Source: Patescibacteria group bacterium
GTDB taxonomy: Bacteria; Patescibacteriota; Patescibacteriia; UM-FILTER-42-10
DNA length: 64,000 nt
Direction: 5' to 3'
NCBI GenBank assembly: GCA_041664365.1
Contig: JBAYKW010000001.1
Coordinates: 144,862 to 208,861 of the forward strand
In this document: piece by piece, positions 630-64,000 of the stretch
How positions within the stretch are numbered: position 1 is the first letter of the stretch
Layout of the letters: each line of letters starts with the position of its first letter
The notes under the pieces: model-generated
What the model saw: the letters and a program-made list of their open reading frames with translations, nothing else
Database searches by the model: none
What the model was told of the DNA's origin: nothing
Made by a program: the position numbers and the translations under genes

Positions 630-1154
630 ATGAACGAAAAAAATGAATTGATGATTGTCGTTGATAATAGTAATAATGCTATTGGGAAAGCGACAATGGA
701 GGAAATTAGGAAAAAGGGGCTTAATCACCGTTCAGTACACATTTTCATTTTCAATAAAGATAATGAACTCCTAATCTGTAAACGCCCTCATTTTAAAAAA
801 GCATACCCAAACATGTATACATCTTCTGCTGGAGGAAAAGTTAACTTTGGCGAGACATTTGAAGAATCCGCAAATCGAGAATTAAAAGAGGAATTAGGCA
901 TAGTAACTGAACTGTCAAAAGTTGGGTCTTACGTTATAGAAAATGAGCTGAAAAATAATAAAGTATTTCATGAACTATTTTATGGTATGTCAGAAGGACC
1001 GTTCAATCTTGATCCAAATGAGATTGTACAATGTGAATTTGTTAAATTAGATGAGATTAGTAAAAGAATAAAAAAGGATAATAATAATTTTGTAAGACCA
1101 TTTATTGATGCTTTTAAACTGTATTTAAAAATAAATGATACAAAGAAAAGTTGA
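630..1154 (+). CDS. Nudix hydrolase, isopentenyl-diphosphate isomerase (IDI type 1)-like
   Basis: The GETFEESANRELKEELGI Nudix box (GX5EX7REUXEEXGU) is present. Overall layout resembles small IDI-like Nudix proteins. Confidence 0.6.
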   Translation: MNEKNELMIVVDNSNNAIGKATMEEIRKKGLNHRSVHIFIFNKDNELLICKRPHFKKAYPNMYTSSAGGKVNFGETFEESANRELKEELGIVTELSKVGSYVIENELKNNKVFHELFYGMSEGPFNLDPNEIVQCEFVKLDEISKRIKKDNNNFVRPFIDAFKLYLKINDTKKS

Positions 1155-6387: not shown

Positions 6388-7389
6388 ATGCTAATCAATA
6401 CTATTATATTAATCGCGCTTCTACTGATTGCTGGTTTTTTTTCCGCAGCTGAAAGCGCATTGCTTTCCATAACCGATGTGAAAGTACGAACGTTCCTCAA
6501 ACAGAAAAAAAGGGGAGCGGGTACACTGCAAAAGTTAAAAAGAAATCCACGCAGAATGATTATTGTGATACTGGTCGGTAACAACGTAGCGAATATTTCT
6601 GCGGCATCGCTCATGTCAATAATCGTTAATGATAGTTTCGGTTCGGCAGCGCTTGGTTATGCTACCGGAATACTGACTCTACTGGTATTGATCTTCGGAG
6701 AGATTACCCCAAAAACATTTGCTAACCGGTTTTCTGGTACAATTTCACTGTGGATTTCGCGTCCAATATATTTGTTCGGCATAGTAATATTTCCTGTTAC
6801 CTGGCTATTGGAATGGATAACCAGCGCAATGCACAAATTAGTAAAGGTGCAGGATCATGAATCGATAACAGAAACAGAAATAAAAGAAATGATCCAGTTC
6901 GGTGTGGAAAAAAATGTAATCGAACCGCATGAGCAGTACATCATGAACCGCGCTCTGAAATTCAGTGATATATCGGTGAAAGAAATTATGGTGCCTTTTA
7001 AAAATATTTTTTCTCTACCTGGCGAGAAAAACGTTGCTGAAGCGATGAATAAAATAATTCTGAGTGGATATTCACGCGTCCCGATCTATGAGAGAGATCC
7101 CAAAAATATCGTTAGTGTGGCGCTGGCAAAAGACATTGCACGTCAGTTAGTGAAAAAAAATGATTCAATTCAGATAAATCAGATCGCCAAAAAGCCGATT
7201 ATTGTTGATGAGGATTTTAAGATAAAATATTTGTTCAAAATATTTCAAAGAACTCATGTCCACATTGCTGTGATTGTTGATAAACAACAGAGGACTGTTG
7301 GTATAGCCACTTTAGAGGACTTGTTGGAAGAACTGGTGGGGGAAATAGAGGACGAAAGTGACAAAATAGAAAGCGGACAGATTGCTTGA
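6388..7389 (+). CDS. HlyC/CorC (CNNM) family transporter, DUF21 plus CBS pair
   Basis: N-terminal 4-TM DUF21 region followed by a CBS pair and C-terminal CorC_HlyC-like region. This is the typical TlyC/CorC architecture. Confidence 0.75.
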   Translation: MLINTIILIALLLIAGFFSAAESALLSITDVKVRTFLKQKKRGAGTLQKLKRNPRRMIIVILVGNNVANISAASLMSIIVNDSFGSAALGYATGILTLLVLIFGEITPKTFANRFSGTISLWISRPIYLFGIVIFPVTWLLEWITSAMHKLVKVQDHESITETEIKEMIQFGVEKNVIEPHEQYIMNRALKFSDISVKEIMVPFKNIFSLPGEKNVAEAMNKIILSGYSRVPIYERDPKNIVSVALAKDIARQLVKKNDSIQINQIAKKPIIVDEDFKIKYLFKIFQRTHVHIAVIVDKQQRTVGIATLEDLLEELVGEIEDESDKIESGQIA

Positions 7390-7499
7390 TATTTATTGCT
7401 CAATCAGTTAAAGTAACGGACTGATCTGTTTTTGGTCAGTTTGCTCATAAAATTAGGTCGAAGTTAGTAACCAAAGTCTCAATTCCGGGAGGTTTCCGC

Positions 7500-8753
7500 A
7501 TGAGAACCCTTTTGTGTTTGTGTGCCATCATTCTGATGGTGCTGCCTGGTCTTTCGGCAACAGCTGCCGAGCTCCAGTACAAGGCCGTTGCCGGACTCGA
7601 TGCAAGCCCCCGGCAAGTGGGCGGTGAACAGGTTGGAGACATCACGGCGTTCGGCTTGAAGCTGTTCGCCACGGATCCGCGCACGCACAGCATGCTTTTT
7701 GGCTTCCAGTACAAGGAATACGACAACAACGTGCCGGAGAGCGCGGGACTCGCTCTGACCAAGCATGAATTTGCCGCAGGAGTAAGCCTGCAGTTCAGCC
7801 GGCCTCTTTCGCTGAAGGTGGCCTACACGCAGGCTGAATACATGAACGACGATCCCTATTCCGCGTTCGGACTGTACCCCTGCTACCGTGGCGGTGATCG
7901 GGGACTGGATGCCGGTCTGGAGCGTGATCTGGCCGGGACCACATTCACGTTCCTGCAGGCGAAACTGAACCGAGGACACGGTACGTGGTACGGCAACGGG
8001 TCGTACGAGCGGTTTCTGACGACTGGTCACGGTTCTTCTGCTGAAGCGGAGAGCTTCGAGCGAATCGGCGGAGGGTATCTGTATTCGGTGCCGGACACGC
8101 GCTTCCGTCTTTTGGCCGGCGCCAACTACAATTTCACTGAGGCGAAACCCACCTGGATTTTTGGCGCTTCACACCACACAAACTCCGGATCGTCCGGCGT
8201 GAATCCGGCCCTTTCGGTATTCTACCGTCTGAAGCCGAATTCGCGGTATGCGCTGGGGATTCTGGCACTTTGGGCGGATTTCGGTCAGCATGCAACGCTT
8301 GGGATTCACGAGGCCGCGTTGCGTGGCGGTTTGAAACGGACGCAGATCATCGCCGGACGGAACATGGGGGATCCGGGAATCGGATCGGCATACGACGCCA
8401 GTGATTTCGGTCTGATCACTTTCGCCGCATCACTGATGTCAGTGGACGCCGGGGATGCGACTTTGATCGAGAACGATCTGACCGGTTACGCGACCTATCC
8501 TGGTTCAATTCTGGGAGTCGCACGGCCGTACATCGGTGCTACGTGGGTCGAGTCGTCTGACCTGATCTATGACCCCTCTCTGCACAGTCTCACCGATCCC
8601 GAGCAGTCCAGGACGGAGTTCAAGCTGGGAGCGAAGATTCCGGTCGGCACGGTTAACCCTGATGACCGGAATTATGAGACTGGCTACCTGCGGGTTGAGC
8701 TGGTCGTAAACAACATCGGCGGTGGAAGCATCAAATTCCAGCACTGGTTCTAG
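7500..8753 (+). CDS. putative outer-membrane beta-barrel protein (signal peptide, C-terminal ...KFQHWF), lying in a high-GC island
   Basis: Signal peptide ends SATA-AE. There are alternating amphipathic strands and a terminal aromatic Phe typical of OMP beta-barrels. GC is ~60% with a strong GGGAGG RBS, both out of character for the backbone. Confidence 0.5.
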   Translation: MRTLLCLCAIILMVLPGLSATAAELQYKAVAGLDASPRQVGGEQVGDITAFGLKLFATDPRTHSMLFGFQYKEYDNNVPESAGLALTKHEFAAGVSLQFSRPLSLKVAYTQAEYMNDDPYSAFGLYPCYRGGDRGLDAGLERDLAGTTFTFLQAKLNRGHGTWYGNGSYERFLTTGHGSSAEAESFERIGGGYLYSVPDTRFRLLAGANYNFTEAKPTWIFGASHHTNSGSSGVNPALSVFYRLKPNSRYALGILALWADFGQHATLGIHEAALRGGLKRTQIIAGRNMGDPGIGSAYDASDFGLITFAASLMSVDAGDATLIENDLTGYATYPGSILGVARPYIGATWVESSDLIYDPSLHSLTDPEQSRTEFKLGAKIPVGTVNPDDRNYETGYLRVELVVNNIGGGSIKFQHWF

Positions 8754-9372: not shown

Positions 9373-9651
9373 TTATTTAAACCACTTCTTTGCACTTGGT
9401 CTGCGATGAGGGCAACCGGGCCAACAGCAGGGTCTGCGTTTTCCTTCAAGTAGTTCAGCTGACAAGCGTTCCAGATGTTCTTTTCTTGTCTCGGGTTTCT
9501 TTACAATTGTAACCCAGCAAATCCACTCATTGCGGGCAAGGGGAGTAAGATTGTCCCATACTGCCAGTAAATCAGAATTGGCTTTTAAAACTTCATTTAG
9601 ATCCTTTGGGACTTTATGAAGTGGGCCCGATTCTTTCTGCTTTTCAATCAT
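9373..9651 (-). CDS. YdeI/OmpD-associated (bacteriocin-protection, OmdA) family protein
   Basis: LTPLARNEWICWVTIVKKPETRKEHLERL closely matches the conserved YdeI/OmdA C-terminal motif. Confidence 0.55.
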   Translation of the reverse strand: MIEKQKESGPLHKVPKDLNEVLKANSDLLAVWDNLTPLARNEWICWVTIVKKPETRKEHLERLSAELLEGKRRPCCWPGCPHRRPSAKKWFK

Positions 9652-9764
9652 AGTATTTTGTAAATATTATTAAGCTAAACGTAATATCTGAACACAGGAT
9701 ATATTATAATTATATCCTCTTACAGATAAAAGGCAAAAATTGATAAATAAAACTTAGTAAATTA

Positions 9765-10175
9765 TTATATTTTAGCCAAATCTCCGTTCAATGTAATCGG
9801 TTGCATAGCCAGAATTTCATCAGAGTAAAACATGTCAGGAATATTGTTCAACATGAAAATTGTTTTGTTTAAACAATGCGCAAACCCCATCTCCAGAAAA
9901 GCGTTTCCGCCGATATAATTGTGAATACCATTTTTATCAACATTAACAATCAGCACTGCGTCAGCTTTTTTTATCTCTTCAAAATAATCACGTATCAGAT
10001 CTTGTTCAATCTTATCTTTGATTGATTCATAGGAAGTGTCCACACCTAATCCCATTTCAGCATACTCTTTTGTATGCTTTGGCAATATTACTTCATGATT
10101 ATGCTTAAGCAATTCCTTCTCTATATCTAACATTTGAACAGCGGATGACATGCTCCCGCATATTACGATTTTCAT
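9765..10175 (-). CDS. nucleoside 2-deoxyribosyltransferase-like protein (Rossmann-like, NDT/DNPH1 superfamily)
   Basis: IVICGSMSS ... VLIVNVDKNGIHNYIGGNAFLEMGFAHCLNKTIF resembles the NDT-family active-site region (E-x-G-x-A). A paralog lies at 38204-38635. Start is placed at the second Met, directly after the upstream kinase stop. Confidence 0.55.
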   Translation of the reverse strand: MKIVICGSMSSAVQMLDIEKELLKHNHEVILPKHTKEYAEMGLGVDTSYESIKDKIEQDLIRDYFEEIKKADAVLIVNVDKNGIHNYIGGNAFLEMGFAHCLNKTIFMLNNIPDMFYSDEILAMQPITLNGDLAKI

Positions 10176-10666
10176 ATTTTTGGTAAATATGAAAGTATTT
10201 TTTTTGTACATTCATCAATATTTTTAGTAACATCAATTTCTGTGCCATAAGTAAATTCAGTAGATTTTTTATGGACAACAGTGGCAGCATCTTTTCCATG
10301 AGCCTTATCCCTTTTCGCATCTCTCTCTATACAAAGCTCAACGGGGGCTTTTAGGGTAAATACATAATGGGGAAAATCAATCTTTTTTATTAAATCATCA
10401 ATTTGAGATTTCCAATAAAAATTACCATCAAAAATAATTGATTTACCGGATTTTAAAATTTTAATCGCTTCGGGGATTATTATATTATTTGCTTTTTTAA
10501 AACTTTCTTGTGAGACATAACCATCTTCTTCACTTAAGGTAAAATGACCCTCATCTAAAATTCTATCAATAGCAAAATATTTAGCATCAATTATTTTTGT
10601 TAATTTTTCAGAAATTGTGGATTTACCACAACCTAGTGGACCTCTAATTATAATATAATAGTTCAT
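10172..10666 (-). CDS. P-loop nucleoside/nucleotide kinase-like protein (AAA_33/zeta-toxin-like fold)
   Basis: Walker A IIIRGPLGCGKST at the N-terminus. The ~160-aa size fits small NMP-type kinases. Confidence 0.6.
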   Translation of the reverse strand: MNYYIIIRGPLGCGKSTISEKLTKIIDAKYFAIDRILDEGHFTLSEEDGYVSQESFKKANNIIIPEAIKILKSGKSIIFDGNFYWKSQIDDLIKKIDFPHYVFTLKAPVELCIERDAKRDKAHGKDAATVVHKKSTEFTYGTEIDVTKNIDECTKKILSYLPKI

Positions 10667-10738
10667 ATGAAGGATAAAAAATTATTTCTTTTTGCCTCAT
10701 ATCCGGTGCTCGGCGATGTATTTTTCAAAAATACTTGT

Positions 10739-11215
10739 TTATTCAAAAATTATTCCAGATAAATATCTTTCTATCAAAATTTTGTCTGCCGGGAATAGAT
10801 TAAGTTTTAAAGCATCCTTTGGTGTATACCATTGCCAATCCAATCGTCCCTCGTTCTCGAGATCGGAAAAGTTACCATCTACATAATCTGCCTTCATTCC
10901 AATAGTAACATAACTTTTTTCTTTATCGGTTCTATAAAAATCATATACCGAAATAAGTTGAATATTTTCTATTTTAATACCACTTTCCTCTTTAACCTCA
11001 CGAGCAGCACATTCTTTTAGCGTTTCGCCTGATTCCCAATGTCCACCTGGAACACCAAAGACAGCTTCTCCCTTACGAGTATCTTTGCCAATGGCAATTT
11101 TCCCCTCTTTTGCTACAACCGTAGCCACTCCAATAGATGGAGGATTGGATTCATTATTTTGAGACATAAGTTTATTTTTAATATATATTTTGAAAATATT
11201 TCGCCTAACAGACAA
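10739..11215 (-). CDS. Nudix hydrolase
   Basis: Nudix box GGHWESGETLKECAAREVKEESGI. Confidence 0.7.
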   Translation of the reverse strand: MSVRRNIFKIYIKNKLMSQNNESNPPSIGVATVVAKEGKIAIGKDTRKGEAVFGVPGGHWESGETLKECAAREVKEESGIKIENIQLISVYDFYRTDKEKSYVTIGMKADYVDGNFSDLENEGRLDWQWYTPKDALKLNLFPADKILIERYLSGIIFE

Positions 11216-11348
11216 GCGTATGCGACGTTATGAGCGAGCTTTGCGGTAAAATATTTGCGGAGCAAACCACCATAGTGTGCGTAGCAGTTTGATCGTAGGG
11301 CTGCAAGCCCGAACTCATTCTAGTGTCAAGCAGGGATTTTAAGCCGAT

Positions 11349-12326
11349 TCATGCCTGTTTTTGAATATAAAAGGAACCCGGCTCCCTTTCTGGAGTCAAT
11401 CTAGGGCATTTATCCTTTAATAATTTATATTTTTTATGATGTAAAAAGTTTAATGCCCCAATAATTCTCCATTTACTATTAGATGTTAGAAATGCTTCCA
11501 GCAAGTATTGTTCATTCCAGAACCTCACTTTTCCAATTACCCAATCTTCCGGATAGTCTTTAGGCGAAAAGATATCATGAATATGGACAATCACCCCGTT
11601 ATTTAAAGTAGGTAATAATTCAAGATACTCGTACAATACGTCTCCTTGAGGACGTATCATGTGTGATGAGTCAATGAAAAGAATATCATTAGTATCTAAT
11701 TTTTTAAATACTTCCTTGTTGACTTCTTCAACTTTCTTACGAATAACATCAACATTCAGTTCCTCAAGCCAAGGCATTTCGTATGGTTCAATACAAATAT
11801 GTTCGCATTTATAATTTTCATCTTCAATTATATTTTTTTTAATAGCCAATTGAGCAATCTTTGTTGAACTGCCACTACCAATTTCAACAATTGTCTTGGG
11901 TTTTTTAAGTCTAACAATATTATACCAGTATTCGGCATCACCTGATTCAAATGAATCATTATTAAAGTTAAATGACAGATCATCTATATAATCACTTGGG
12001 ATATTATCAAATTCATCATTGTAATGAAACTTCTCTAAAAGAGAAATTTGTTCTGTAATATTCCAATCAATTCCTGGCAATTCTCGATTTTCTGATAAGG
12101 GTTTGCGTAGGCATTTTTTATCAAATAGTGGCTCATAATAATGATTGCAAATCGGCATTACTCCAACTTTCAATAAAGCTTTTTTGGATATTTTCAGATG
12201 TTCTAAGCCGATGCGACGAACAGCACGTAAAATAACCGCTGAAATAAATACAAATGGAAATAATAATACATCAATTAATGGTGAATGTCCTATGCCTTTT
12301 ACAATAGATCTAAAATTCAGTTTCAT
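11349..12326 (-). CDS. class I SAM-dependent methyltransferase (TylF/Methyltransf_24-like) with N-terminal TM helix
   Basis: IVEIGSGSST is a motif I glycine-rich SAM-binding loop. An acidic ILFIDSSH follows downstream. Confidence 0.55.
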   Translation of the reverse strand: MKLNFRSIVKGIGHSPLIDVLLFPFVFISAVILRAVRRIGLEHLKISKKALLKVGVMPICNHYYEPLFDKKCLRKPLSENRELPGIDWNITEQISLLEKFHYNDEFDNIPSDYIDDLSFNFNNDSFESGDAEYWYNIVRLKKPKTIVEIGSGSSTKIAQLAIKKNIIEDENYKCEHICIEPYEMPWLEELNVDVIRKKVEEVNKEVFKKLDTNDILFIDSSHMIRPQGDVLYEYLELLPTLNNGVIVHIHDIFSPKDYPEDWVIGKVRFWNEQYLLEAFLTSNSKWRIIGALNFLHHKKYKLLKDKCPRLTPEREPGSFYIQKQA

Positions 12327-12334
12327 AATAAATA

Positions 12335-13159
12335 TTAATCCTTTTTTTCTAATATAATTCTTGAGATTTCTGCGGCTATAAATTTCATTTCTTGCCTTGC
12401 TTTTTTTACTTCTTCCATTGTTGAAGGGGAGGAATTTTTAGTTGGATGGGCACTGATTTGATTAGTTTTTTCAACGCCAGTAAACATTCTTTTGTAAAAA
12501 GATAATCCAGCAAAATCCGTAGATCCATAAATAATTTTTTTGTTTTTCAGAGTTTCTAAATTTCCGAGATCTTGTGGATCATCTACGGATAATGATGCAA
12601 TGTCAAAATCTACATCCTGCTTTTCAAGTATTCTAGCTAAAGATCCTATACTGTATCCGGTTTGTATGTGTTCTGTTACCAGTAAAGCTTTATCGATGGA
12701 TAATTTTTTTTCAGCAATAAATTGTTGGATAGCTTCATTGATTTGAGCATTATGATGTTGTCCTCCTGCTATAAAGAATGTTTGTACAGGTTCTTCTTCT
12801 AATTCAGCTTTTTTTCTGTTAATTACTTCTCTTAAAAATAAGGATATAATCCTACCGCTAGCGTCATCACTAATTATAGTATCATAATTTGTTATCCTAT
12901 CTTCCAACTCAATGACTAAGCGGGCAAGAGACATAATCACTTCTATCGCTTTTTTTTGCCCCCAGTATTCTAATAAAAATGGAATATTTTTTAGTACATA
13001 ATCCGCGTCAATACAGTCCATTATTCTTTTTTCCGCAATTTCATCCACTTGTCTGGTTATCAGTATGTCTTCAGGGGGGTTTTCAGATTCGACGGCAGTT
13101 TGTTCGGTAGGTTTTTTATCAGAGCTTTCTCTTGTTGGTGATTCAAAAAAAGTTTTCAT
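12335..13159 (-). CDS. hypothetical protein with possible phosphoribosyltransferase-like PRPP motif
   Basis: ALLVTEHIQTGYSIGSL loosely resembles the type I PRTase PRPP-binding loop (four hydrophobics, two acidics, TG). The match is weak. Confidence 0.3.
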   Translation of the reverse strand: MKTFFESPTRESSDKKPTEQTAVESENPPEDILITRQVDEIAEKRIMDCIDADYVLKNIPFLLEYWGQKKAIEVIMSLARLVIELEDRITNYDTIISDDASGRIISLFLREVINRKKAELEEEPVQTFFIAGGQHHNAQINEAIQQFIAEKKLSIDKALLVTEHIQTGYSIGSLARILEKQDVDFDIASLSVDDPQDLGNLETLKNKKIIYGSTDFAGLSFYKRMFTGVEKTNQISAHPTKNSSPSTMEEVKKARQEMKFIAAEISRIILEKKD

Positions 13160-13232
13160 ACTTTTTATAATTTATTACTATTCAATATAATTGGCCTGCA
13201 AATGAGAAGTTGACCGTGAGTAATTGTGATAA

Positions 13233-13310
13233 AATTATAACATCACAGGCACAAGAAGACAATTTGCGAAAACCAGCTCTTTTAAGCTGGCTTTCTTGCG
13301 TACGCTCGCC
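13233..13310 (+). repeat. ~75-bp direct repeat copy 1, containing hairpin CCAGCTCTTTTAAGCTGG
   Basis: ...catcacaggcacaagaagacaatttgcgaaaaccagctcttttaagctggctttcttgcgtacg... recurs at 14063-14140 at roughly 90% identity. Confidence 0.75.
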
Positions 13311-13346
13311 TATACTTGCAGTCTATGGCGAGACGCACGCCGTTGG

Positions 13347-13979
13347 TTATTTAATAAAACTTAATATTTGTGACAGGTCATCAATAACGATGTCTGCACT
13401 GGATAAGTCATTACTAATTCTCGATTTGAAACCAATTGTTGTAATACCTAGCTTTTGTGCGACGGGAAAAATAGTAGACATATCATCGATATAAACAATA
13501 TTTTTTGGTTCAATATTAAGGAAACTAAGCGCTTTTTTCAGGCCCTCTGGGTGTGGTTTTGGATGTTCAACGTCCTGACCACTAATTATAAAAGAAAAAT
13601 ATTCTTGGAGATTAAATTTGTTTAAGCCAGAATTTATTCCATATTTATCTACACTGCTTAAAATTCCCATTTTAATTCCTTTTTGAGAAAGTGCCACTAG
13701 AACGTCGTTTGCATTTTTGGTGAGTTTCACAAAATCAGCGTACTTAGGATAGAAAGTTTTCATCATTGGCAATACCTTTTCTATATCTTTTTTTGATACT
13801 CCGTTGTCAAAAAAGAACTTATGCCAGTCTTGTTTTATTTCTTGAAACCAAGTAGAGGGGCCAACTGTTTTTCCGCTAAGTGCTTTAACGATGTCACAAT
13901 TTGCTCGAGCAACGGCATCTAAATCATCAATAATTACTCCATTCCAATCAAAGATAATAGCCTTTATTGTTTTATTCAT
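13347..13979 (-). CDS. HAD-family hydrolase (beta-phosphoglucomutase/phosphatase-like)
   Basis: Motif I IIFDWNGVI (DxDGV-type) and a C-terminal YIDDM motif IV. Confidence 0.75.
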   Translation of the reverse strand: MNKTIKAIIFDWNGVIIDDLDAVARANCDIVKALSGKTVGPSTWFQEIKQDWHKFFFDNGVSKKDIEKVLPMMKTFYPKYADFVKLTKNANDVLVALSQKGIKMGILSSVDKYGINSGLNKFNLQEYFSFIISGQDVEHPKPHPEGLKKALSFLNIEPKNIVYIDDMSTIFPVAQKLGITTIGFKSRISNDLSSADIVIDDLSQILSFIK

Positions 13980-14062
13980 AAATCATATATTCTATAATAA
14001 GCCCATAGAATTTCGCACAATAGGTAGTATATGCGAAGATGCCTTTGTGGTGACTATGATAC

Positions 14063-14140
14063 AATTTTAACATCACGGGCATAAGAAGACAATTTACAGA
14101 AAACCAGCTCTTTTAAGCTGGCTTTCTTGCATACGCGATG
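14063..14140 (+). repeat. ~75-bp direct repeat copy 2 (same orientation as 13233-13310)
   Basis: ...catcacgggcataagaagacaatttacagaaaaccagctcttttaagctggctttcttgcatacg... Confidence 0.75.
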
Positions 14141-14231
14141 ATAGAGTATATTCATTTTTATTACATCTTTATCATTAGAGTCAGTAACTCTATAACTGAG
14201 TAAGAAAAAATTTTAGATTCCCAATGTTAGC

Positions 14232-14894
14232 TTACTCGGGTAATCCGGCTCGTTCCCTTATAGCATTAACTTTTTCCTCGACTGTGGTGAAAAGATTCTC
14301 TATGGCTTCTATTTTTTCTAAATATGTTTTTCCACTATAAATTATTATTTCATCAAATCCAGGGTCCCTCTTCATTATTTCTTCAAATGCTTTAATATTA
14401 TCTTCTTGACCACCTTTTTCTTTTAATGCAGCTATATATTTATTTATTTTTCTAAAAAGTATCTCTGATCGTCTGTCAACAAATTTATCAGATAATTTTG
14501 ATATTACTGCTTCATTTTCAAACATACCCCTTTTTTGTGTTTCTTTCTCATACGCTTCAAACCTACTATTAAAACTATTATTACAAGCATATAGTAGTTT
14601 CAATTTTTCTGCTTCACTAATACTTTCATCGCTTGTAATTTCGTCTATATCAGAAATTAAGTATTCTAGAATAGCGTCAAGGCGACGTTCATCATGTGGG
14701 TGTTCAGCAACTTCATTGTACCTTTCATTTCCACTCTTTTGATTTAATACACGTTTGTTTGCCGATGCAATTATTTCTTCTCGTACTTCAGCGTATGATT
14801 CTGTACTATTGTCTATTGTTGGCATCTCATCAGCTGGAGGTATTTGCTCATCGGTTTCGTCTACTATTGGGGATGGGGATCCAAATTCGTTCAT
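14232..14894 (-). CDS. hypothetical acidic protein
   Basis: 220-aa ORF predicted to be helical and acidic. No family recognised. Confidence 0.3.
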   Translation of the reverse strand: MNEFGSPSPIVDETDEQIPPADEMPTIDNSTESYAEVREEIIASANKRVLNQKSGNERYNEVAEHPHDERRLDAILEYLISDIDEITSDESISEAEKLKLLYACNNSFNSRFEAYEKETQKRGMFENEAVISKLSDKFVDRRSEILFRKINKYIAALKEKGGQEDNIKAFEEIMKRDPGFDEIIIYSGKTYLEKIEAIENLFTTVEEKVNAIRERAGLPE

Positions 14895-15024
14895 ATTTTA
14901 TAATTATTCAATTATATCTATATTATAAATAAATAATGTAATTTTGCAAATAGCAGCCATTAGCATAGCTGAATGGCCGGTTTTCATGTATTATTAAATG
15001 TAGATAAGCATTAACTAAATACAT

Positions 15025-15360
15025 ATGAAAATACTTATAAGGTGGCTATTAGCAACAGTTGCTATTATGATCGCGGCATATTTATTGCCGGGTGTGGAAG
15101 TGGACGGCTTTTTTTCCGCATTAATCGGAGCGTTGGTATTGGGTTTGATTAATGCATTTATTAAACCGATATTGGTGATTTTTACCCTCCCGATCAATAT
15201 TCTGACCCTTGGTCTGTTTACCCTGGTGATCAACGCGCTATTGGTCATGCTCATGGCGATGATCGTCTCGGGATTCTCCGTGGCAAGTTTTTGGTGGGCA
15301 TTGCTATTTGGTGTGGTGCTGGCAACTGTGAACTGGTTTCTTTCGCAATTGTCCAAATAG
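15025..15360 (+). CDS. phage-holin-family 4 / DUF360 (YvlD-like) membrane protein
   Basis: Four TM helices. ALIGALVLGLINAFIKPIL...TLGLFTLVINAL is typical of the DUF360 / Phage_holin_4_2 family. Confidence 0.55.
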   Translation: MKILIRWLLATVAIMIAAYLLPGVEVDGFFSALIGALVLGLINAFIKPILVIFTLPINILTLGLFTLVINALLVMLMAMIVSGFSVASFWWALLFGVVLATVNWFLSQLSK

Positions 15361-16035: not shown

Positions 16036-16335
16036 TTAGTCTTCCCCGGATTCTCTCCAACTCTTTGTGCAGTTCTGGCAGCGGTATTCTACCTGTGTTT
16101 TTCCGAAGGAGAATATTCCGGAGAATGATGAGAAGGTGCGTTGACGAGTGGGAAAGACCAGGTAGTGGCGTGTCTTACAGACGGGACAGCAACGTTTCCC
16201 TTCTTCATCGCGAGGGATGAGATGATCTTCTAAAGGTGCAAGGTATATGACCGCCGCGATGGTCAGAAACAGGGGGTGGATGAAAAGTCCGAAAAGAAGC
16301 ATTATACAGAAAAGAACACGCTGGTTGCCTGACAT
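16036..16335 (-). CDS. small membrane protein with C-terminal zinc-ribbon (CPVC...CQNC), in a high-GC island
   Basis: GGAGGAGGTG RBS upstream of the second Met. Two TM helices, then CxxC...CxxC. A terminator hairpin AGCGC...GCGCT plus a T-run follows on the minus strand at about 16000-16035. Confidence 0.3.
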   Translation of the reverse strand: MSGNQRVLFCIMLLFGLFIHPLFLTIAAVIYLAPLEDHLIPRDEEGKRCCPVCKTRHYLVFPTRQRTFSSFSGIFSFGKTQVEYRCQNCTKSWRESGED

Positions 16336-16482
16336 TTTCACCTCCTCCATGAATTAATAAGTCAGCCTACAGGACAGTTAACAATGCTAATCTATTTGCG
16401 TTTTGCTGTCAATATTTGTAAATAAAAAATGGGCGAGTTTTGTGGACTCGCCCGGTGTGCATCTCAACGATGATCTTCTTCT

Positions 16483-16938
16483 CTACGCCTTCGCGTAGGC
16501 TGCGACAATTTCGGATGACAGGGCATCCGGTCCGATCCGCTGAATCAGCGCGGCAGCCTGCTTTCTGGTCGGCTTCGCCGTGCCGGTTCGTGGGTCGAGC
16601 TTCGGAATGCTCAGGAGGTTGACGGGGGGCGAGTAGCCTCCCGCCATGGCATCAGTCACATCCTGATCGAAGCAGCGCTGCAGGTAGCTGTGCAGGGGTC
16701 CTGCGGGGGTCATGGGGTTGTTGGAGTTCATGCAGCTCCCGCAGACGCACAACAGGACGGTGCGCGCGCATCCGACGGGGGATTCCTTGTCCTTGGGGGA
16801 CACTGACTGGACTACGAGCACGTGGCTCGAAGACCATTGGGTTTTGTCGCACATGCGAGATCCTCTCATCATTAGAGTCGTGGGCATTGACTGCTCTGAC
16901 GGAGAAGATCGCATGTCAACCGAACCCGCGATGTGCAT
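16483..16938 (-). CDS. hypothetical cysteine-rich protein (high-GC island); reading frame uncertain
   Basis: Longest ORF in the ~60% GC segment and contains a CVCGSC cluster. Several overlapping alternative frames are open, as expected at high GC, so the call is weak. Confidence 0.25.
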   Translation of the reverse strand: MHIAGSVDMRSSPSEQSMPTTLMMRGSRMCDKTQWSSSHVLVVQSVSPKDKESPVGCARTVLLCVCGSCMNSNNPMTPAGPLHSYLQRCFDQDVTDAMAGGYSPPVNLLSIPKLDPRTGTAKPTRKQAAALIQRIGPDALSSEIVAAYAKA

Positions 16939-33580: not shown

Positions 33581-34138
33581 ATGAAATTTCCAAAAAATTC
33601 GAAAAAGGTATTTACAGGAAAAATATTCAGTGTATATCAATGGCGCCAGAAGATGTATGACGGGACGTATAAGATATTTGAAGGTGCCTATCGAAAGGCA
33701 ACTGTTGATATTATTGCAACGGTTGGTGATAAAATAATCGTACTGAAGCAGGAACAGCCAACTAAACCGCTTTTTCCGTCGCTTCCGGGTGGTGGTATTG
33801 AAAGCGGCCAAACTGCTTTACAAACCGTAAAAAGGGAACTGCTGGAAGAAACCGGGTTTGCTGCAAAAAAAATTATTAAATATAAATATTTTGAAGGAAC
33901 TCCCAAGATAATATTTCATCAGTTTGTTTTTATAGCCAAAGAATGTGCCAAAGTTTCCGATCAGCATCTGGATAGCGGTGAAAGAATTACAGTTACTTTT
34001 AAAACCTTTGATCAGTTTTTGCAGCTTTGCCGTGACGAACGTTTTACCGCAGTACTCGGCCTACGATTTATAATGTATGAAGCACTTTTGGATCGGAAAA
34101 AATATATGGAATTGAAAAAAGTGATATTCAAAAAATAG
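33581..34138 (+). CDS. Nudix hydrolase (ADP-ribose pyrophosphatase-like)
   Basis: Nudix box GGGIESGQTALQTVKRELLEETGF. Confidence 0.7.
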   Translation: MKFPKNSKKVFTGKIFSVYQWRQKMYDGTYKIFEGAYRKATVDIIATVGDKIIVLKQEQPTKPLFPSLPGGGIESGQTALQTVKRELLEETGFAAKKIIKYKYFEGTPKIIFHQFVFIAKECAKVSDQHLDSGERITVTFKTFDQFLQLCRDERFTAVLGLRFIMYEALLDRKKYMELKKVIFKK

Positions 34139-34148
34139 ACGAAAACTT

Positions 34149-34604
34149 ATGCCCAAGAGAGACTATTACCACATATCTTTAAAGCTGATTTTAAAAAATG
34201 AAAAAGACGAAGTTTTGGTATTGGGTTCAGACCCGAAAGGGAGTCTGTTAGGCAAATATGATTTGCCCGGCGGTAGAATTGACGAGTCGGAATTTAGTAC
34301 TCCCTATGAGCAAATTATCAGACGCGAAGTTTCCGAGGAAGTCGGTAATATTGAATTATCACTAAATCAAAAGCCGGTCGCCATCGGTCGCCATTTAATT
34401 CCGAAAAAATTAACGAGTGAGAATAAGGATATTCACATCATGTATATATTTTTTGAAGCAAAAATGATCAGTGGCAACATACAGATCAGTTCAGAACATA
34501 ATGGATATAAATGGGTTAAACTTGGCGAGAATGATCCCGCTGACTATTTCACATCCGGTATTTTGGAAGGAATAAATATGTATCTATCTAATTCTAATAA
34601 ATAA
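34149..34604 (+). CDS. Nudix hydrolase
   Basis: Nudix box GGRIDESEFSTPYEQIIRREVSEEVG. Confidence 0.65.
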   Translation: MPKRDYYHISLKLILKNEKDEVLVLGSDPKGSLLGKYDLPGGRIDESEFSTPYEQIIRREVSEEVGNIELSLNQKPVAIGRHLIPKKLTSENKDIHIMYIFFEAKMISGNIQISSEHNGYKWVKLGENDPADYFTSGILEGINMYLSNSNK

Positions 34605-34612
34605 TTTATAAA

Positions 34613-35053
34613 ATGAAGATCAAAGTCATTTGCGGTGCCGTGGTTGTAAAAGATAATAAATTTGTGATAGTCCAGGAAGCACAAGGTCTCGTGCGCGGTC
34701 TGTGGAATATTCCGGCCGGCCATCTGGATGACGAAGAGGATCTTAAAAGTGCGGCTGTACGAGAGGTGAAAGAGGAGACGGGTCTGGATGTTAAACTGGA
34801 AGGTCTGATTGGCATTTACCAACATAAAAGCTTGCATGGCAATAATGTCGTTGGCTTTTATTTCAAAGCGTCTGTACTAGGCGGTGAGCTGTTAATTAAT
34901 CCTGTTGAAATCCTTGATTCCAAATGGGTAACTTTTGAGGAGTTTTTGAATTACCCAGAAAATATTGTCCGAGCGCTACTGTTGAAAACAGTCATCAAAG
35001 ACTATTTGGATCATGGCTCTGTTGATAATAGAATAAATAGCGGAATTAATTAG
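34613..35053 (+). CDS. Nudix hydrolase
   Basis: Nudix box AGHLDDEEDLKSAAVREVKEETGL. Confidence 0.7.
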   Translation: MKIKVICGAVVVKDNKFVIVQEAQGLVRGLWNIPAGHLDDEEDLKSAAVREVKEETGLDVKLEGLIGIYQHKSLHGNNVVGFYFKASVLGGELLINPVEILDSKWVTFEEFLNYPENIVRALLLKTVIKDYLDHGSVDNRINSGIN

Positions 35054-38203: not shown

Positions 38204-38635
38204 ATGAAAATAGGATTAATGCACAGCCTGGATTTTTCTAACGAAGTTCTGGCGATAAAAAAGCAACTGGAGGAAAAAGGACACAGTGTTTCCATGTGTT
38301 ATTCAGTTTCAAAAATAGAGAACGGAATATTCAGTGTTCAGGAAGTATTGGATTTGAAAAAATCCGGTAATTTTTCTGACTATACTATTTCCAAGGATTT
38401 GATCAGATGGAATTGGGAACGGATGAAGAAAGATGATGCTATCCTGGTTATCAATCTAGATAAAAATGGAATTGAAAATTATATCGGCGGTAATACATTC
38501 CTAGAAATAGGATTTGCGCATGTACTGAATAAGAAAATATTTTTGTGGAATGATGTCCCGGCAATGCCTTATTCTGACGAGATAAAAGCAATGCAGCCAG
38601 TGGTAATTAACCACAATTTAGATTTGATTGTTTAG
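38204..38635 (+). CDS. nucleoside 2-deoxyribosyltransferase-like protein (paralog of 9765-10175)
   Basis: DAILVINLDKNGIENYIGGNTFLEIGFAHVLNKKIFLWNDVPAMPYSDEIKAMQP aligns almost residue-for-residue with the motif block of the 9765-10175 protein. Confidence 0.55.
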   Translation: MKIGLMHSLDFSNEVLAIKKQLEEKGHSVSMCYSVSKIENGIFSVQEVLDLKKSGNFSDYTISKDLIRWNWERMKKDDAILVINLDKNGIENYIGGNTFLEIGFAHVLNKKIFLWNDVPAMPYSDEIKAMQPVVINHNLDLIV

Positions 38636-51220: not shown

Positions 51221-51817
51221 ATGAAGTTTGAAGTTGAAAAAAGAAGTAAAATAGATGATGCTGAAGAAATAGAAAGAGTTAAGGAATACTTATCTGCACA
51301 CGGAGAGTACCTGGGCTCAAAAATGATGCGCTCTTTTCTATTTCGGAATCCTACATCTCTACGAATTCGTCTGATTGAAGGAAAGGATTCAGCATTGGTT
51401 ACAATAAAGAAAGGTGAATATGCTGATCCGGCGATGGAAGAAGAGGAGTATGAAGTACCATTAACAGAATTAGATGCTTTTATTGAGCAAAAAAAAGTTG
51501 AAGGCTATGAGGCATGTTCAGAAGTAAATACTTTTCGCGAAACATATATTTTAAATGGATTGAAAATTGAGATAAATGATATTGATTCTTTGGGTTTGAT
51601 TATTGAGATAGAGGCATTGACTGAAGATAAAGATGAAATAGATGGTTTAGAAGAACGAATTCGTGAGACAATGCAGGAATTAAATTTGCCGGAACTCGAT
51701 CCATCTGAATATAAATTGATGATGGACGCAATGCAGGACGAAACAAATAGGCCAGTAAGTGAGCAAGTTTTTACAGTTGATTGGGATGAAGATATTAATG
51801 AGAAGAAAATTAAGTAA
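51221..51817 (+). CDS. CYTH-domain protein (triphosphate tunnel metalloenzyme, CyaB/ThTPase-like)
   Basis: N-terminal MKFEVEKRSKI resembles the CYTH ExExK motif. Acidic beta-strand pattern throughout. Confidence 0.45.
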   Translation: MKFEVEKRSKIDDAEEIERVKEYLSAHGEYLGSKMMRSFLFRNPTSLRIRLIEGKDSALVTIKKGEYADPAMEEEEYEVPLTELDAFIEQKKVEGYEACSEVNTFRETYILNGLKIEINDIDSLGLIIEIEALTEDKDEIDGLEERIRETMQELNLPELDPSEYKLMMDAMQDETNRPVSEQVFTVDWDEDINEKKIK

Positions 51818-52374
51818 TGAGTCTAATGAGTAGAACCTGGAAAAAATTGAATTCAAAGATTGTATATAGTAACTCTTGGATAAAAGTCCATGAGGATCAA
51901 GTTTTGAAGCCGGATGGTAAGGAAGGTATCTATGGTTATCTGGAAAAAAACCAAGCTTGCTTTGTGATAGCGCTGGATAATGAAGAAAATATCTATCTGG
52001 TAAAACAGTTCAGATATGCTCTGCAAAAAACAATTCTGGAATTACCGGCCGGTACGGTAAATAATGAAGATATCGCTGATAGAGCAAAAGCGGAACTTTT
52101 GGAAGAAGCAGGAATAGAAGCAAAGGAATGGAAAAGGCTGGGTGGGTTTTACGTAGCACCAGGGCATGAATCTACTTATATTAATGTTTACCTCGCGACG
52201 GATTTAGATTTATCCAAACTATCTACCAGTGGGCAAGATGATGATGAATCAATATTGGAGATAGTTAAAGTAAGTCAGCCAGAATTAAAGAAGATGTTAA
52301 CAGATGGAAAGATTGAATGCGGAATATCGATAGCCGCTTTGAATCTGTTTTTTCTGAGTCATAATAAAAGTTAA
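51817..52374 (+). CDS. Nudix hydrolase (ADP-ribose pyrophosphatase NudF-like)
   Basis: Nudix box AGTVNNEDIADRAKAELLEEAGI. N-terminal substrate-recognition beta-domain. Confidence 0.7.
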   Translation: MSLMSRTWKKLNSKIVYSNSWIKVHEDQVLKPDGKEGIYGYLEKNQACFVIALDNEENIYLVKQFRYALQKTILELPAGTVNNEDIADRAKAELLEEAGIEAKEWKRLGGFYVAPGHESTYINVYLATDLDLSKLSTSGQDDDESILEIVKVSQPELKKMLTDGKIECGISIAALNLFFLSHNKS

Positions 52375-53788: not shown

Positions 53789-54286
53789 ATGGAAAAATTC
53801 AGTCTGCCGATTATTTCCGCGATTATTGAGAGGCAAAAAGACGGAGAAACAGAAATATTGGTTCAAACTAGGTGGAAACCGGAAGAAGATCCTGTATATA
53901 CGGGATGTTTGGAAATTCCGGCAGGAAAAATAAGGGAATTTGAAAATGTCTATGATGCTTTAAATAGAGAGGTGAAGGAAGAAACGGGGTTGAAAATAAC
54001 CAGTATTTTTCCAGATATTAAAACAAAAACGCATTCTCCAAAGGATGACGGATCGTTCGCTTTTCAGCCGTTTTGCTGCCAGCAACAAACAAAAGGAGGA
54101 CGACCATGGATCGGTTTCGTTTTTATTTGCAATGTTGAGGATAAGACACCATTAAAGGAGGGGGATAATACAAGAGATATTCGTTGGATAAAAAAATCTG
54201 AATTGAAGAGAATTTTTGAAGAAACACCAGAAAAGATATTTACCCTGCAATTAGGGGTTTTGGATTATTACTTTAATAAAAGTTAG
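53789..54286 (+). CDS. Nudix hydrolase
   Basis: Nudix box AGKIREFENVYDALNREVKEETGL. Confidence 0.65.
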   Translation: MEKFSLPIISAIIERQKDGETEILVQTRWKPEEDPVYTGCLEIPAGKIREFENVYDALNREVKEETGLKITSIFPDIKTKTHSPKDDGSFAFQPFCCQQQTKGGRPWIGFVFICNVEDKTPLKEGDNTRDIRWIKKSELKRIFEETPEKIFTLQLGVLDYYFNKS

Positions 54287-57578: not shown

Positions 57579-57983
57579 ATGTCAGAAAAAAGAGTTTCAG
57601 CAGTGATTATCAGTGGAGATAAACAAATATTGTTAGTCCATAGGATAAAAAATGGCAGTGAATATTTTGTTTTGCCCGGCGGGAGTGTTGAGACGGAAGA
57701 AGATCATATATCTGCCCTGATCAGAGAAGTAAAAGAGGAAACAAATTTAGATGTGAAAATTGGAAAAGAACTTTGGCAGGTAAAAAGTGATGCTGATCGG
57801 AGAATTCAACATATATTCCTAGTTTCAAAATATGCTGGTAATCTGGAATTAGGCAGTCCGGAAAAAGAAAGGCAATCAGAAAGTAACAAATACTTTTTGG
57901 AGTGGCGTAAGATTGAAGATATTAGCAATATTGATTTTTATCCAGAAGAAATTAGATTAAACATTATTAAAGAATTCGCATGA
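57579..57983 (+). CDS. Nudix hydrolase
   Basis: Nudix box GGSVETEEDHISALIREVKEETNL. Confidence 0.7.
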   Translation: MSEKRVSAVIISGDKQILLVHRIKNGSEYFVLPGGSVETEEDHISALIREVKEETNLDVKIGKELWQVKSDADRRIQHIFLVSKYAGNLELGSPEKERQSESNKYFLEWRKIEDISNIDFYPEEIRLNIIKEFA

Positions 57984-61904: not shown

Positions 61905-61975
61905 ATTTTGATCAAATAAAAAAACCGCATTCAGCAAAGATTGCTGGTGCGGTGTGGGGAATGAACGGCGTTCAG
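61905..61975. terminator. bidirectional terminator-like hairpin between convergent genes
   Basis: AAAAAACCGC...GCGGTTTTTTT with internal complementarity. Marks the boundary into the high-GC segment. Confidence 0.45.
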
Positions 61976-63969: not shown

Positions 63970-64000
63970 TTCACGCAGAACGGCGATGACAGCATGCGAC

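What the first reader, a model, noticed from the sequence alone, without database searches (positions are those of the whole stretch)
9765..11215. P-loop kinase / nucleoside-2-deoxyribosyltransferase-like / Nudix gene trio, with a second transferase-like paralog at 38204
On the minus strand a Walker-A kinase (10172-10666) ends at the start codon of an NDT-like protein (9765-10175), and a Nudix hydrolase lies just upstream (10739-11215). The NDT-like protein has a near-identical motif block (…DKNGIxNYIGGNxFLExGFAHxLNKxIF…PxMxYSDEIxAMQP) in a second gene at 38204-38635, next to an SDR and a HAD gene. The NDT/DNPH1 superfamily cleaves or transfers the N-glycosidic bond of deoxynucleosides or dNMPs. 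Coupled to a kinase and a pyrophosphatase this could be a compact deoxynucleotide salvage or remodelling module, important for an organism lacking de novo synthesis. It could equally be a nucleotide-targeting toxin/immunity pair.
Basis: partly seen in the sequence, partly recalled or inferred. Interest (0 to 1): 0.52.

Follow-up and report, generated by a model that had tools for sequence, protein, structure and literature searches.

The report
NDT-fold enzyme beside unrelated kinase
The three genes are real, but their adjacency is an accident of one lineage; the interesting part is the small NDT-fold protein, which belongs to a large unstudied family of ultra-small bacteria and archaea that probably cleaves the base from unwanted nucleotides after a pyrophosphatase has acted on them.

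Summary
On the minus strand lie a Nudix gene (10739-11167), a P-loop kinase (10172-10666) and an NDT-like gene (9765-10175). The kinase stop and the NDT-like start overlap as ATGA. A paralog 44% identical to the NDT-like protein sits at 38204-38635.

The trio is not a module. No kinase lies near the NDT-like gene in 80 loci, and no NDT-like gene lies near the kinase in 80 loci. Close relatives lack window 10189-14981 (kinase through a 220-aa ORF), which sits in a variable hotspot just upstream of the NDT-like gene. The window also carries eight Nudix genes. The kinase belongs to AAA_33 and is closest to PSTK/KTI12, not to nucleoside or nucleotide kinases.

The family does have a link to pyrophosphatases. 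Its domain is fused to four unrelated NTP pyrophosphatase families (YjjX, Nudix, Maf, MazG), and Nudix and HD genes are its commonest immediate neighbours. The most likely function is a DNPH1-like (d)NMP N-glycosidase.

The parts
9765..10175 (-). NDT-like protein 1 (136 aa), subfamily A of an uncharacterised CPR/DPANN family with the NDT fold. Key residues are S8, D72, Y87, G89-G90-N91, E95 and K104.
10172..10666 (-). P-loop kinase (164 aa) of a highly conserved CPR/DPANN family in AAA_33, PSTK/KTI12-like. Its substrate is unknown, and it is not a conserved partner of the NDT-like gene.
10739..11167 (-). Nudix hydrolase (142 aa from the ATG; the ORF extends to a TTG at 11215). It is one of eight Nudix genes in the window.
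   Evidence: PF00293 at 2e-18 with a perfect Nudix box. Best NCBIfam hits are below threshold: NAD diphosphatase and pyrimidine dNTP diphosphatase. Count of eight Nudix genes.
38204..38635 (+). NDT-like protein 2 (143 aa), a divergent branch of subfamily B. S8, D78 and E101 are kept, but the N-terminal CGS motif has degenerated to MHS.
   Evidence: 44% identity to copy 1. Subfamily alignment. Profile-profile probability 100%, E 7e-67.
10189..14981 (.). Lineage-specific block in a variable hotspot immediately upstream of NDT-like 1. It carries the kinase, Nudix, a Methyltransf_24 gene, a 274-aa unknown, a HAD gene and a 220-aa unknown.
   Evidence: blastn synteny: window 9373-10188 and 14982-15359 match L163, and nothing in between does. 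L163 carries an integrase plus Vpar_1526 at this site. L001, L165 and L166 carry a 349-aa gene, a SLOG LDcluster4 gene and a 68-aa gene.

Best explanation
The window holds three real but functionally unlinked genes. A 4.8-kb lineage-specific block, inserted into a variable hotspot, brought the kinase and the Nudix gene next to the NDT-like gene. The NDT-like gene (and its paralog at 38204) is the resident gene at this site. It belongs to a large, uncharacterised family of CPR bacteria and DPANN archaea within the nucleoside 2'-deoxyribosyltransferase/DNPH1 superfamily. Shown here: the fold, the conserved Glu and Asp, the family's distribution, the lack of a conserved trio, and the recurrent fusion or adjacency of the family to nucleotide (tri)phosphate hydrolases. 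Inferred: the protein cleaves an N-glycosidic bond by the double-displacement chemistry of NDT and DNPH1, with E95 as nucleophile forming a covalent sugar intermediate and D72 protonating the leaving base. Also inferred: its substrate is most likely a (deoxy)nucleoside 5'-monophosphate made by a house-cleaning NTP pyrophosphatase (Nudix, Maf, MazG or YjjX). The pair would then convert an unwanted or scavenged (d)NTP into free base plus (deoxy)ribose 5-phosphate. The kinase is a separate, highly conserved PSTK/KTI12/AAA_33-type enzyme of unknown substrate. It is probably co-transcribed with the NDT-like gene here only because of where the block landed.
Against: No biochemistry exists for any member. 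The Tyr of the NDT/DNPH1 triad is replaced by Val or Ile, and the residue six positions before the Glu (Asp92 in NDT, phosphate-binding Ser98 in DNPH1) is an invariant Gly. Neither the nucleoside nor the nucleotide binding mode is therefore reproduced, and the preference for a monophosphate rests on the fusion partners plus motif resemblance recalled from memory (CGS loop as in DNPH1, GGN loop as in LOG). YjjX is reported to produce diphosphates rather than monophosphates (own knowledge), which fits a simple two-step scheme less well. Only the top 150 of 1,519 clusters could be inspected for fusions. The ATGA overlap with the kinase is compatible with translational coupling in this genome, so a local, recently acquired functional link cannot be excluded. 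The Nudix enrichment near the gene is modest, and in this window Nudix genes are so frequent (8 of 83) that adjacency carries little weight.
Confidence: 0.6

Rival explanations
1. Kinase, NDT-like protein and Nudix form one compact deoxynucleotide salvage or remodelling module: the Nudix enzyme makes dNMP, the NDT-like enzyme swaps or removes the base, and the kinase re-phosphorylates the product.
For: The three genes lie on one strand with an ATGA overlap and a 72-nt gap. The NDT fold and catalytic residues are present. The family is linked elsewhere to pyrophosphatases.
Against: The kinase is never a neighbour in 160 loci, and no fusion partner among the 20 long proteins scanned individually was a kinase; no kinase family appeared among the nine families matched by the 37 long proteins scanned together. 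The block carrying the kinase and Nudix is missing in the nearest relatives. The kinase falls below threshold for dNK, NMP-kinase and uridine kinase models and is nearest to PSTK/KTI12, chloramphenicol phosphotransferase and gluconate kinase. This Nudix gene is not the orthologue of the fused or adjacent ones.
Confidence: 0.1
2. The protein is a genuine nucleoside 2'-deoxyribosyltransferase. It exchanges bases between deoxynucleosides for salvage in organisms lacking de novo synthesis, and it acts independently of its neighbours.
For: The best structural matches are active short NDTs, 7o62 and 6evs. There are weak but consistent PF05014 hits. Its hosts are CPR and DPANN organisms, which depend on salvage (own knowledge). 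Adjacent HD phosphohydrolases could supply nucleosides.
Against: The Tyr7 and Asp92 equivalents that position the Glu and bind the sugar hydroxyl are absent. Fusion partners that release nucleotides, not nucleosides, predominate. The N-terminal CGS loop resembles DNPH1 rather than the YxAGP motif of NDTs.
Confidence: 0.2
3. The protein is a glycohydrolase for NAD or NMN (TIR-like or NMN nucleosidase). It works with NAD-diphosphatase-type Nudix enzymes in pyridine nucleotide turnover.
Against: There are no TIR Pfam or PADLOC hits. The fusion partners YjjX, Maf and MazG act on NTPs, not NAD. NDTs outrank TIRs in the fold search.
Confidence: 0.07
4. The genes form a nucleotide-targeting toxin/immunity or anti-phage defence pair.
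For: The genes sit at a variable hotspot that carries an integrase in a relative. Members of the NDT/TIR superfamily occur in defence systems (own knowledge).
Against: The NDT-like gene is the conserved resident, not the cargo. In many genomes it lies between lysS and serS in a housekeeping string. PADLOC gives nothing for either NDT-like protein and only weak, non-specific hits for the kinase. One viral hit among 2.9 million contigs.
Confidence: 0.03

Closest known systems
Short type II nucleoside 2'-deoxyribosyltransferases (Desulfotalea psychrophila 7o62, Bacillus psychrosaccharolyticus 6evs, Chroococcidiopsis thermalis 8rh3/8pqp; Pfam PF05014)
   Different: 13-18% identity. The score is below the PF05014 cutoff. 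There are no sequence-level hits to any solved structure. The Tyr7 and Asp92 equivalents are replaced by Val/Ile and Gly. The loop before the Glu differs in length and carries invariant N78, Y87 and GGN. The family is fused to NTP pyrophosphatases.
DNPH1/Rcl, 2'-deoxynucleoside 5'-phosphate N-hydrolase (hmdUMP pool sanitiser)
   Different: Y24 is replaced by Val or Ile. Phosphate ligand S98 is replaced by an invariant Gly, and S128' could not be mapped. There is no detectable sequence similarity by HMMER and hhalign to a single DNPH1 sequence failed. The family is prokaryotic, from CPR and DPANN.
LOG/SLOG phosphoribohydrolases and PpnN-type nucleotide 5'-monophosphate nucleosidases
   Same: Rossmann-like fold with a Gly-rich loop followed by a catalytic Glu (GGNxFLE here; PGGxGTxxE in LOG, from own knowledge). 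These are base-releasing enzymes acting on nucleoside monophosphates. A SLOG LDcluster4 gene sits next to the NDT-like gene in close relatives.
PSTK/KTI12 and AAA_33 kinases (comparison for the kinase gene)
   Same: Walker A GxxGxGKST. The profile matches the Methanocaldococcus PSTK kinase domain over residues 4-137 (E 1.9e-7). The Pfam AAA_33 and KTI12 gathering scores are passed.
   Different: Only 164 aa, so it lacks the tRNA-binding C-terminal domain. The PSTK equivalog score is 31.8 against a cutoff of 290. The best fold matches are small-molecule kinases: chloramphenicol phosphotransferase and gluconate kinase.

Membership tests
Nucleoside 2'-deoxyribosyltransferase (PF05014) | NDT flavodoxin-like fold | tested here: met
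Nucleoside 2'-deoxyribosyltransferase (PF05014) | Score at or above the Pfam gathering threshold (28.8 bits) | tested here: not met
   15.8 and 15.7 bits for the two window proteins. 34 of 42 relatives hit at E<=0.1, best 3.4e-6. One tandem relative, P0364, reaches 43.3 bits.
Nucleoside 2'-deoxyribosyltransferase (PF05014) | Glu nucleophile (LlNDT E98) | tested here: met
   E95 is invariant. It aligns to VELG of CtNDT and MELG of LlNDT. E101 in the paralog.
Nucleoside 2'-deoxyribosyltransferase (PF05014) | Acid Asp directly before beta3 (LlNDT D72) | tested here: met
   D72 is at least 90% conserved in subfamily A and D78 is present in the paralog. In the wider subfamily B this position is D, E or N.
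Nucleoside 2'-deoxyribosyltransferase (PF05014) | Tyr of the N-terminal YxxG motif (LlNDT Y7) and Asp six residues before the Glu (D92) | tested here: not met
   The Tyr position is V4 or I4, and the position six before the Glu is the invariant G89.
Nucleoside 2'-deoxyribosyltransferase (PF05014) | Deoxyribosyl transfer between bases | not testable with these tools
   Needs an enzyme assay.
DNPH1/Rcl dNMP N-hydrolase | Catalytic triad Y24, D80, E104 (PMC10603095) | tested here: inconclusive
   The Asp and Glu equivalents are present with 23-residue spacing (24 in DNPH1). The Tyr is replaced by Val or Ile.
DNPH1/Rcl dNMP N-hydrolase | Phosphate ligands S98 and S128' from the partner subunit | tested here: not met
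   The S98 position is the invariant G89. S128' cannot be mapped without a dimer model.
DNPH1/Rcl dNMP N-hydrolase | Detectable sequence homology | tested here: not met
TIR-domain NADase | TIR profile match or membership of a defence system | tested here: not met
Nudix hydrolase (PF00293) | Nudix box GX5EX7REUXEEXGU and the Pfam threshold | tested here: met
   67.1 bits against a cutoff of 21.1, and the box GHWESGETLKECAAREVKEESGI is present. No NCBIfam equivalog threshold is reached, so the substrate is unassigned.
AAA_33 / KTI12-PSTK kinases | Pfam thresholds; the PSTK equivalog threshold; a tRNA-binding C-terminal domain | tested here: inconclusive
   AAA_33 scores 39.1 (cutoff 27) and KTI12 30.6 (cutoff 22), so both are met. 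PSTK TIGR03574 scores 31.8 against 290, so it is not met. The protein ends at residue 164, with no C-terminal domain.
Deoxynucleoside, NMP, shikimate and gluconate kinases | Family model thresholds | tested here: not met
   dNK 17.4 against 27. SKI 13.1 against 22.1. Gluconokinase TIGR01313 17.4 against 113.75. dTMP, CMP, AMP and GMP kinase models are all far below their cutoffs.
Conserved kinase/NDT-like/Nudix operon | Recurrence of the gene trio in related genomes | tested here: not met
   0 of 80 and 0 of 80 loci. Absent in the nearest relatives.

The most novel reading that the evidence does not exclude
The family may be a (deoxy)nucleoside-monophosphate N-glycosidase specific to CPR and DPANN organisms. 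Together with interchangeable NTP pyrophosphatases (Nudix, Maf, MazG, YjjX), it would form a two-step route that strips bases from non-canonical or host-scavenged nucleotides and feeds (deoxy)ribose 5-phosphate into central metabolism. That would be a core trait of ultra-small symbionts that cannot make nucleotides themselves, using an active site (Val/Ile for Tyr, a GGN loop for the Asp or Ser ligand) not seen in characterised NDT or DNPH1 enzymes.
Probability: 0.25. Interest if true: 0.6.

Novelty: new variant of a known kind. Interest (0 to 1): 0.4.

Why it matters
CPR bacteria and DPANN archaea depend on scavenged nucleotides, yet many of their conserved small proteins have no assigned role. 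This analysis removes a tempting but false three-gene module. It also gives a testable function to a family of about 1,500 clusters that is present in hundreds of species of both radiations. Four unrelated house-cleaning NTP pyrophosphatase families have each been fused to the same NDT-fold domain. That is the kind of independent, repeated association that usually marks consecutive steps of one pathway. If confirmed, the family would be a prokaryotic counterpart of the human nucleotide-pool sanitiser DNPH1, with a different set of substrate-binding residues.

Tried and rejected
- Searches of the NDT-like protein against solved structures, with a single sequence and with a profile, gave only chance hits. 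Only one bridging relative, P0097, reached CtNDT, at E 1.3.
- hhalign of the family profile against single LlNDT and DNPH1 sequences was not significant. It was used only for motif register.
- Rfam at gathering thresholds and the tRNA scan found nothing in the window.
- Promoter and terminator scans around the trio did not exceed the shuffled controls.
- PADLOC gave no meaningful hit.
- The first single-linkage clustering of neighbours overcounted Nudix, because the L034 fusion bridged the NDT-like paralogs into the Nudix cluster. It was replaced by an HMM-based Nudix count and a Pfam census.
- The HD neighbours were tested for YfbR-type 5'-deoxynucleotidase identity. They match only generic HDIG/PRK10119 phosphohydrolase models.
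- The two unknown proteins of the inserted block (274 aa and 220 aa) are not paralogs and have no Pfam family.
- No flanking direct repeats mark the ends of the inserted block.
- Literature searches pairing deoxyribosyltransferase with CPR, Patescibacteria, DPANN or house-cleaning found nothing about this family.

Full report
**What is in the sequence.** Window 9765-11215 carries three consecutive ORFs on the minus strand.
- A Nudix gene occupies 10739-11167. The ORF runs up to a TTG at 11215, but a hairpin overlaps that TTG, so the ATG at 11167 is the likelier start.
- A 164-aa Walker-A protein occupies 10172-10666.
- A 136-aa protein occupies 9765-10175.

Every homologue of the 136-aa protein begins MKI[VIA]ICGS, so its start is 10175. 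That start overlaps the kinase stop as ATGA. A second copy at 38204-38635 on the plus strand is 44% identical to it (E 6e-37), with an almost identical C-terminal block. It lies after a HAD gene and an SDR-like gene.

**Identity of the small protein.**
- Pfam PF05014 (Nuc_deoxyrib_tr) scores 15.8 and 15.7 bits against a cutoff of 28.8. NCBIfam gives nothing.
- Neither the sequence nor a 42-member profile finds any solved structure.
- The fold is nevertheless clear. An AlphaFold2 model built on the family alignment has pLDDT 91.6.
- 34 of 42 family members hit PF05014 weakly (best E 3.4e-6), and a tandem relative passes the cutoff.
- A bridging member aligns FLEMGFAhvLeK with MVELGMAiaLNK of the Chroococcidiopsis NDT. 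hhalign puts E95 on LlNDT E98.
- The motif [MVY]ELG is the one that carries the nucleophile E104 of human DNPH1. D72 lies immediately before beta3, as DNPH1 D80 and LlNDT D72 do (PMC10603095).

Two other canonical residues are missing. The Tyr of the triad is Val or Ile. The residue six positions before the Glu, which is Asp92 in NDT and the phosphate ligand Ser98 in DNPH1, is an invariant Gly inside a YIGGN loop. The N-terminal beta1-CGS loop matches the CGS of DNPH1.

**Family.**
- The exact protein is NCBI WCW66_00810 from a Patescibacteria MAG, on a 392-kb contig. The paralog is WCW66_00995.
- A profile search of 1.84 billion representatives finds 1,519 clusters at E<=1e-3 and 969 at E<=1e-10.
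They come from Falkow-, Moran-, Par-, Buchanan- and Paceibacteria and from Woese-, Nano- and other DPANN archaea.
- One weak hit exists among 2.9 million viral contigs.
- There are two main subfamilies: A, about 137 aa, with CGSMS (copy 1), and B, about 144 aa (copy 2 is a branch of B with a degenerate N-terminus). They match with hhalign probability 100%.
- Literature searches found nothing on this family.

**The trio is not a module.**
- In 80 GTDB loci centred on the NDT-like gene, no homologue of the kinase lies within 6 kb.
- In 80 metagenome loci centred on the kinase, no NDT-like gene is present, and the kinase has no recurrent neighbour at all.
- Nucleotide synteny with the closest relatives is decisive. 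Window 6532-8753 and 9373-10188 (OmdA plus the NDT-like gene) and 14982-15359 and 16069-16707 align with L163, where the NDT-like protein is 81% identical. Window 10189-14981 has no counterpart.
- That unmatched block carries the kinase, Nudix, a Methyltransf_24 gene, a 274-aa unknown, a HAD gene and a 220-aa unknown.
- At the same site L163 carries an integrase and a Vpar_1526 gene. L001, L165 and L166 carry a 349-aa gene, a SLOG LDcluster4 gene and a 68-aa gene.
- Homology resumes 13 nt upstream of the NDT-like start codon. The ATGA overlap therefore results from where this block ends.
- A 90%-identical kinase (L168) and a 79%-identical NDT-like gene (L169) also lack the partner.
- The paralog's SDR and HAD neighbours are absent in an 83%-identical relative, where DUF1801 directly precedes it.

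**Nudix.** The window has eight Nudix genes among about 83 genes, so adjacency here carries little weight. The Nudix gene at 10739 is not the orthologue of the Nudix genes found next to or fused with the family elsewhere. Across the 77 usable loci, however, Nudix genes make up 17 of 294 genes at offsets 1-2 from the NDT-like gene and 11 of 611 further away (odds ratio 3.3, Fisher p 0.002).

**Fusions and neighbours.** Among the 150 best cluster representatives, ten are fused to four unrelated NTP pyrophosphatase families:
- six are NDT-like + NTPase_I-T/YjjX (inosine/xanthosine triphosphatase family);
- two are NDT-like + Nudix;
- one is NDT-like + Maf (it passes the TIGR00172 cutoff);
- one is two NDT-like domains + MazG.

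A further Nudix fusion is the 301-aa ORF at L034 7643-8548. The fused domains are 38-54% identical to copy 1, or 32-54% if the degenerate first domain of the MazG fusion is counted. The Nudix fusions are the closest, at 53-54%. Nearly all keep the ICGS and YIGGNxxLEMG motifs. A Pfam census of 119 immediate neighbours puts NUDIX (9) and HD (7) first, with CYTH (2) and Maf (1). The HD genes often overlap the NDT-like gene by 1-17 nt. None of the 20 long proteins scanned individually has a kinase partner, and no kinase family appears among the nine families matched by the 37 long proteins or among the 25 commonest neighbour families shown. In many Patescibacteria the gene sits in a same-strand string GreA-LysRS-[small genes]-NDT-like-SerRS. 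That is a housekeeping setting.

**The kinase.**
- It passes the Pfam AAA_33 and KTI12 thresholds.
- Its profile finds the kinase domain of archaeal PSTK at E 1.9e-7 over residues 4-137.
- The dNK, NMP-kinase, shikimate and gluconate kinase models are all far below threshold.
- The family is very well conserved. The 120 listed cluster representatives, from CPR bacteria and DPANN archaea, are at least 62% identical to the query. A 35-sequence alignment of the family has 40 invariant residues.
- Its substrate is unknown, and nothing ties it to nucleosides.

**Most likely mechanism.** Shown: the fold, the Glu/Asp pair, and repeated physical fusion to enzymes that hydrolyse (non-canonical) NTPs. 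Inferred: the protein cleaves an N-glycosidic bond by double displacement through E95, with D72 as the acid. Also inferred: it acts on the nucleotide produced by the partner pyrophosphatase, as DNPH1 does in human nucleotide-pool sanitation (PMC10603095), yielding base plus (deoxy)ribose 5-phosphate. The CGS and GGN loops at two helix N-termini are candidate phosphate binders; this rests on motif resemblance and is not tested. I put about 0.5 on a (d)NMP glycosidase, about 0.2 on a true nucleoside transferase, and less on NAD/NMN cleavage or defence. I put about 0.85 on the statement that the kinase/NDT-like/Nudix adjacency is not a functional module.

**Verdict.** It is wrong on the central claim of a three-gene module and on the toxin alternative. 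What remains is a new, uncharacterised variant of the NDT/DNPH1 kind that is widespread in CPR and DPANN organisms. It is moderately interesting and directly testable.

Noticed in passing
window 630-1154, 10739-11167, 33581-34138, 34149-34604, 34613-35053, 51817-52374, 53789-54286, 57579-57983: Eight Nudix hydrolase genes among about 83 genes in 64 kb, three of them in tandem at 33.6-35.1 kb. This is an unusually high density.
   Followed up: partly
window 13220-13305 and 14050-14136: A direct repeat of about 87 nt (81-97% identical) flanks the HAD gene 13347-13979. Its 32-nt core occurs exactly twice, with none expected by chance. On the minus strand it reads as a terminator hairpin followed by a promoter-like TTGTCT...TGATGTTATAAT, which looks like a duplicated terminator-promoter cassette.
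   Followed up: partly
window 10172-10666 and loci L081-L160: The 164-aa kinase family is highly conserved. The 120 listed cluster representatives, from both CPR bacteria and DPANN archaea, are at least 62% identical to the query, and a 35-sequence alignment has 40 invariant residues. It has no conserved gene neighbourhood. It is a PSTK/KTI12-like kinase domain without a tRNA-binding domain, and its substrate is unknown.
   Followed up: partly
window 10189-14981; L163 1138-3323; L001 4156-5991; L165 2132-3754: A hypervariable site lies immediately upstream of the NDT-like gene. Three close relatives carry three different cargo sets there. One set has a tyrosine integrase. Another has a SLOG LDcluster4 protein, which is a further nucleotide-processing fold.
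   Followed up: yes
P0367, P0383, P0424, P0435, P0502 (relatives, not in the window): An N-terminal domain of about 120 aa with no significant Pfam match (P0424 has only a below-cutoff AMPK1_CBM hit) is fused in front of the NDT-like domain in at least five cluster representatives.
   Followed up: no
L005, L006, L007, L016, L025 and other GTDB loci: A same-strand string GreA-LysRS-NDT-like-SerRS with gaps of 4-50 nt recurs in several Patescibacteria lineages. Small HD, Nudix or other genes are sometimes inserted between LysRS and the NDT-like gene.
   Followed up: partly
window 7500-8753: A 417-aa ORF with a signal-peptide-like N-terminus and no Pfam match lies in a stretch of higher GC (about 44-45% against 33% for the neighbouring block). 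It is conserved at 76% nucleotide identity in relative L163.
   Followed up: no
window 62001-64000: The last 2 kb of the window is 54% GC against about 38% for the window overall. It is covered by a 665-aa minus-strand ORF (61972-63969) that was not examined.
   Followed up: no
P0477 (relative, not in the window): In the Maf fusion the catalytic position reads MDMG instead of LEMG (Glu replaced by Asp), and the GGN loop reads GSN. This may be a variant or an inactive domain.
   Followed up: no
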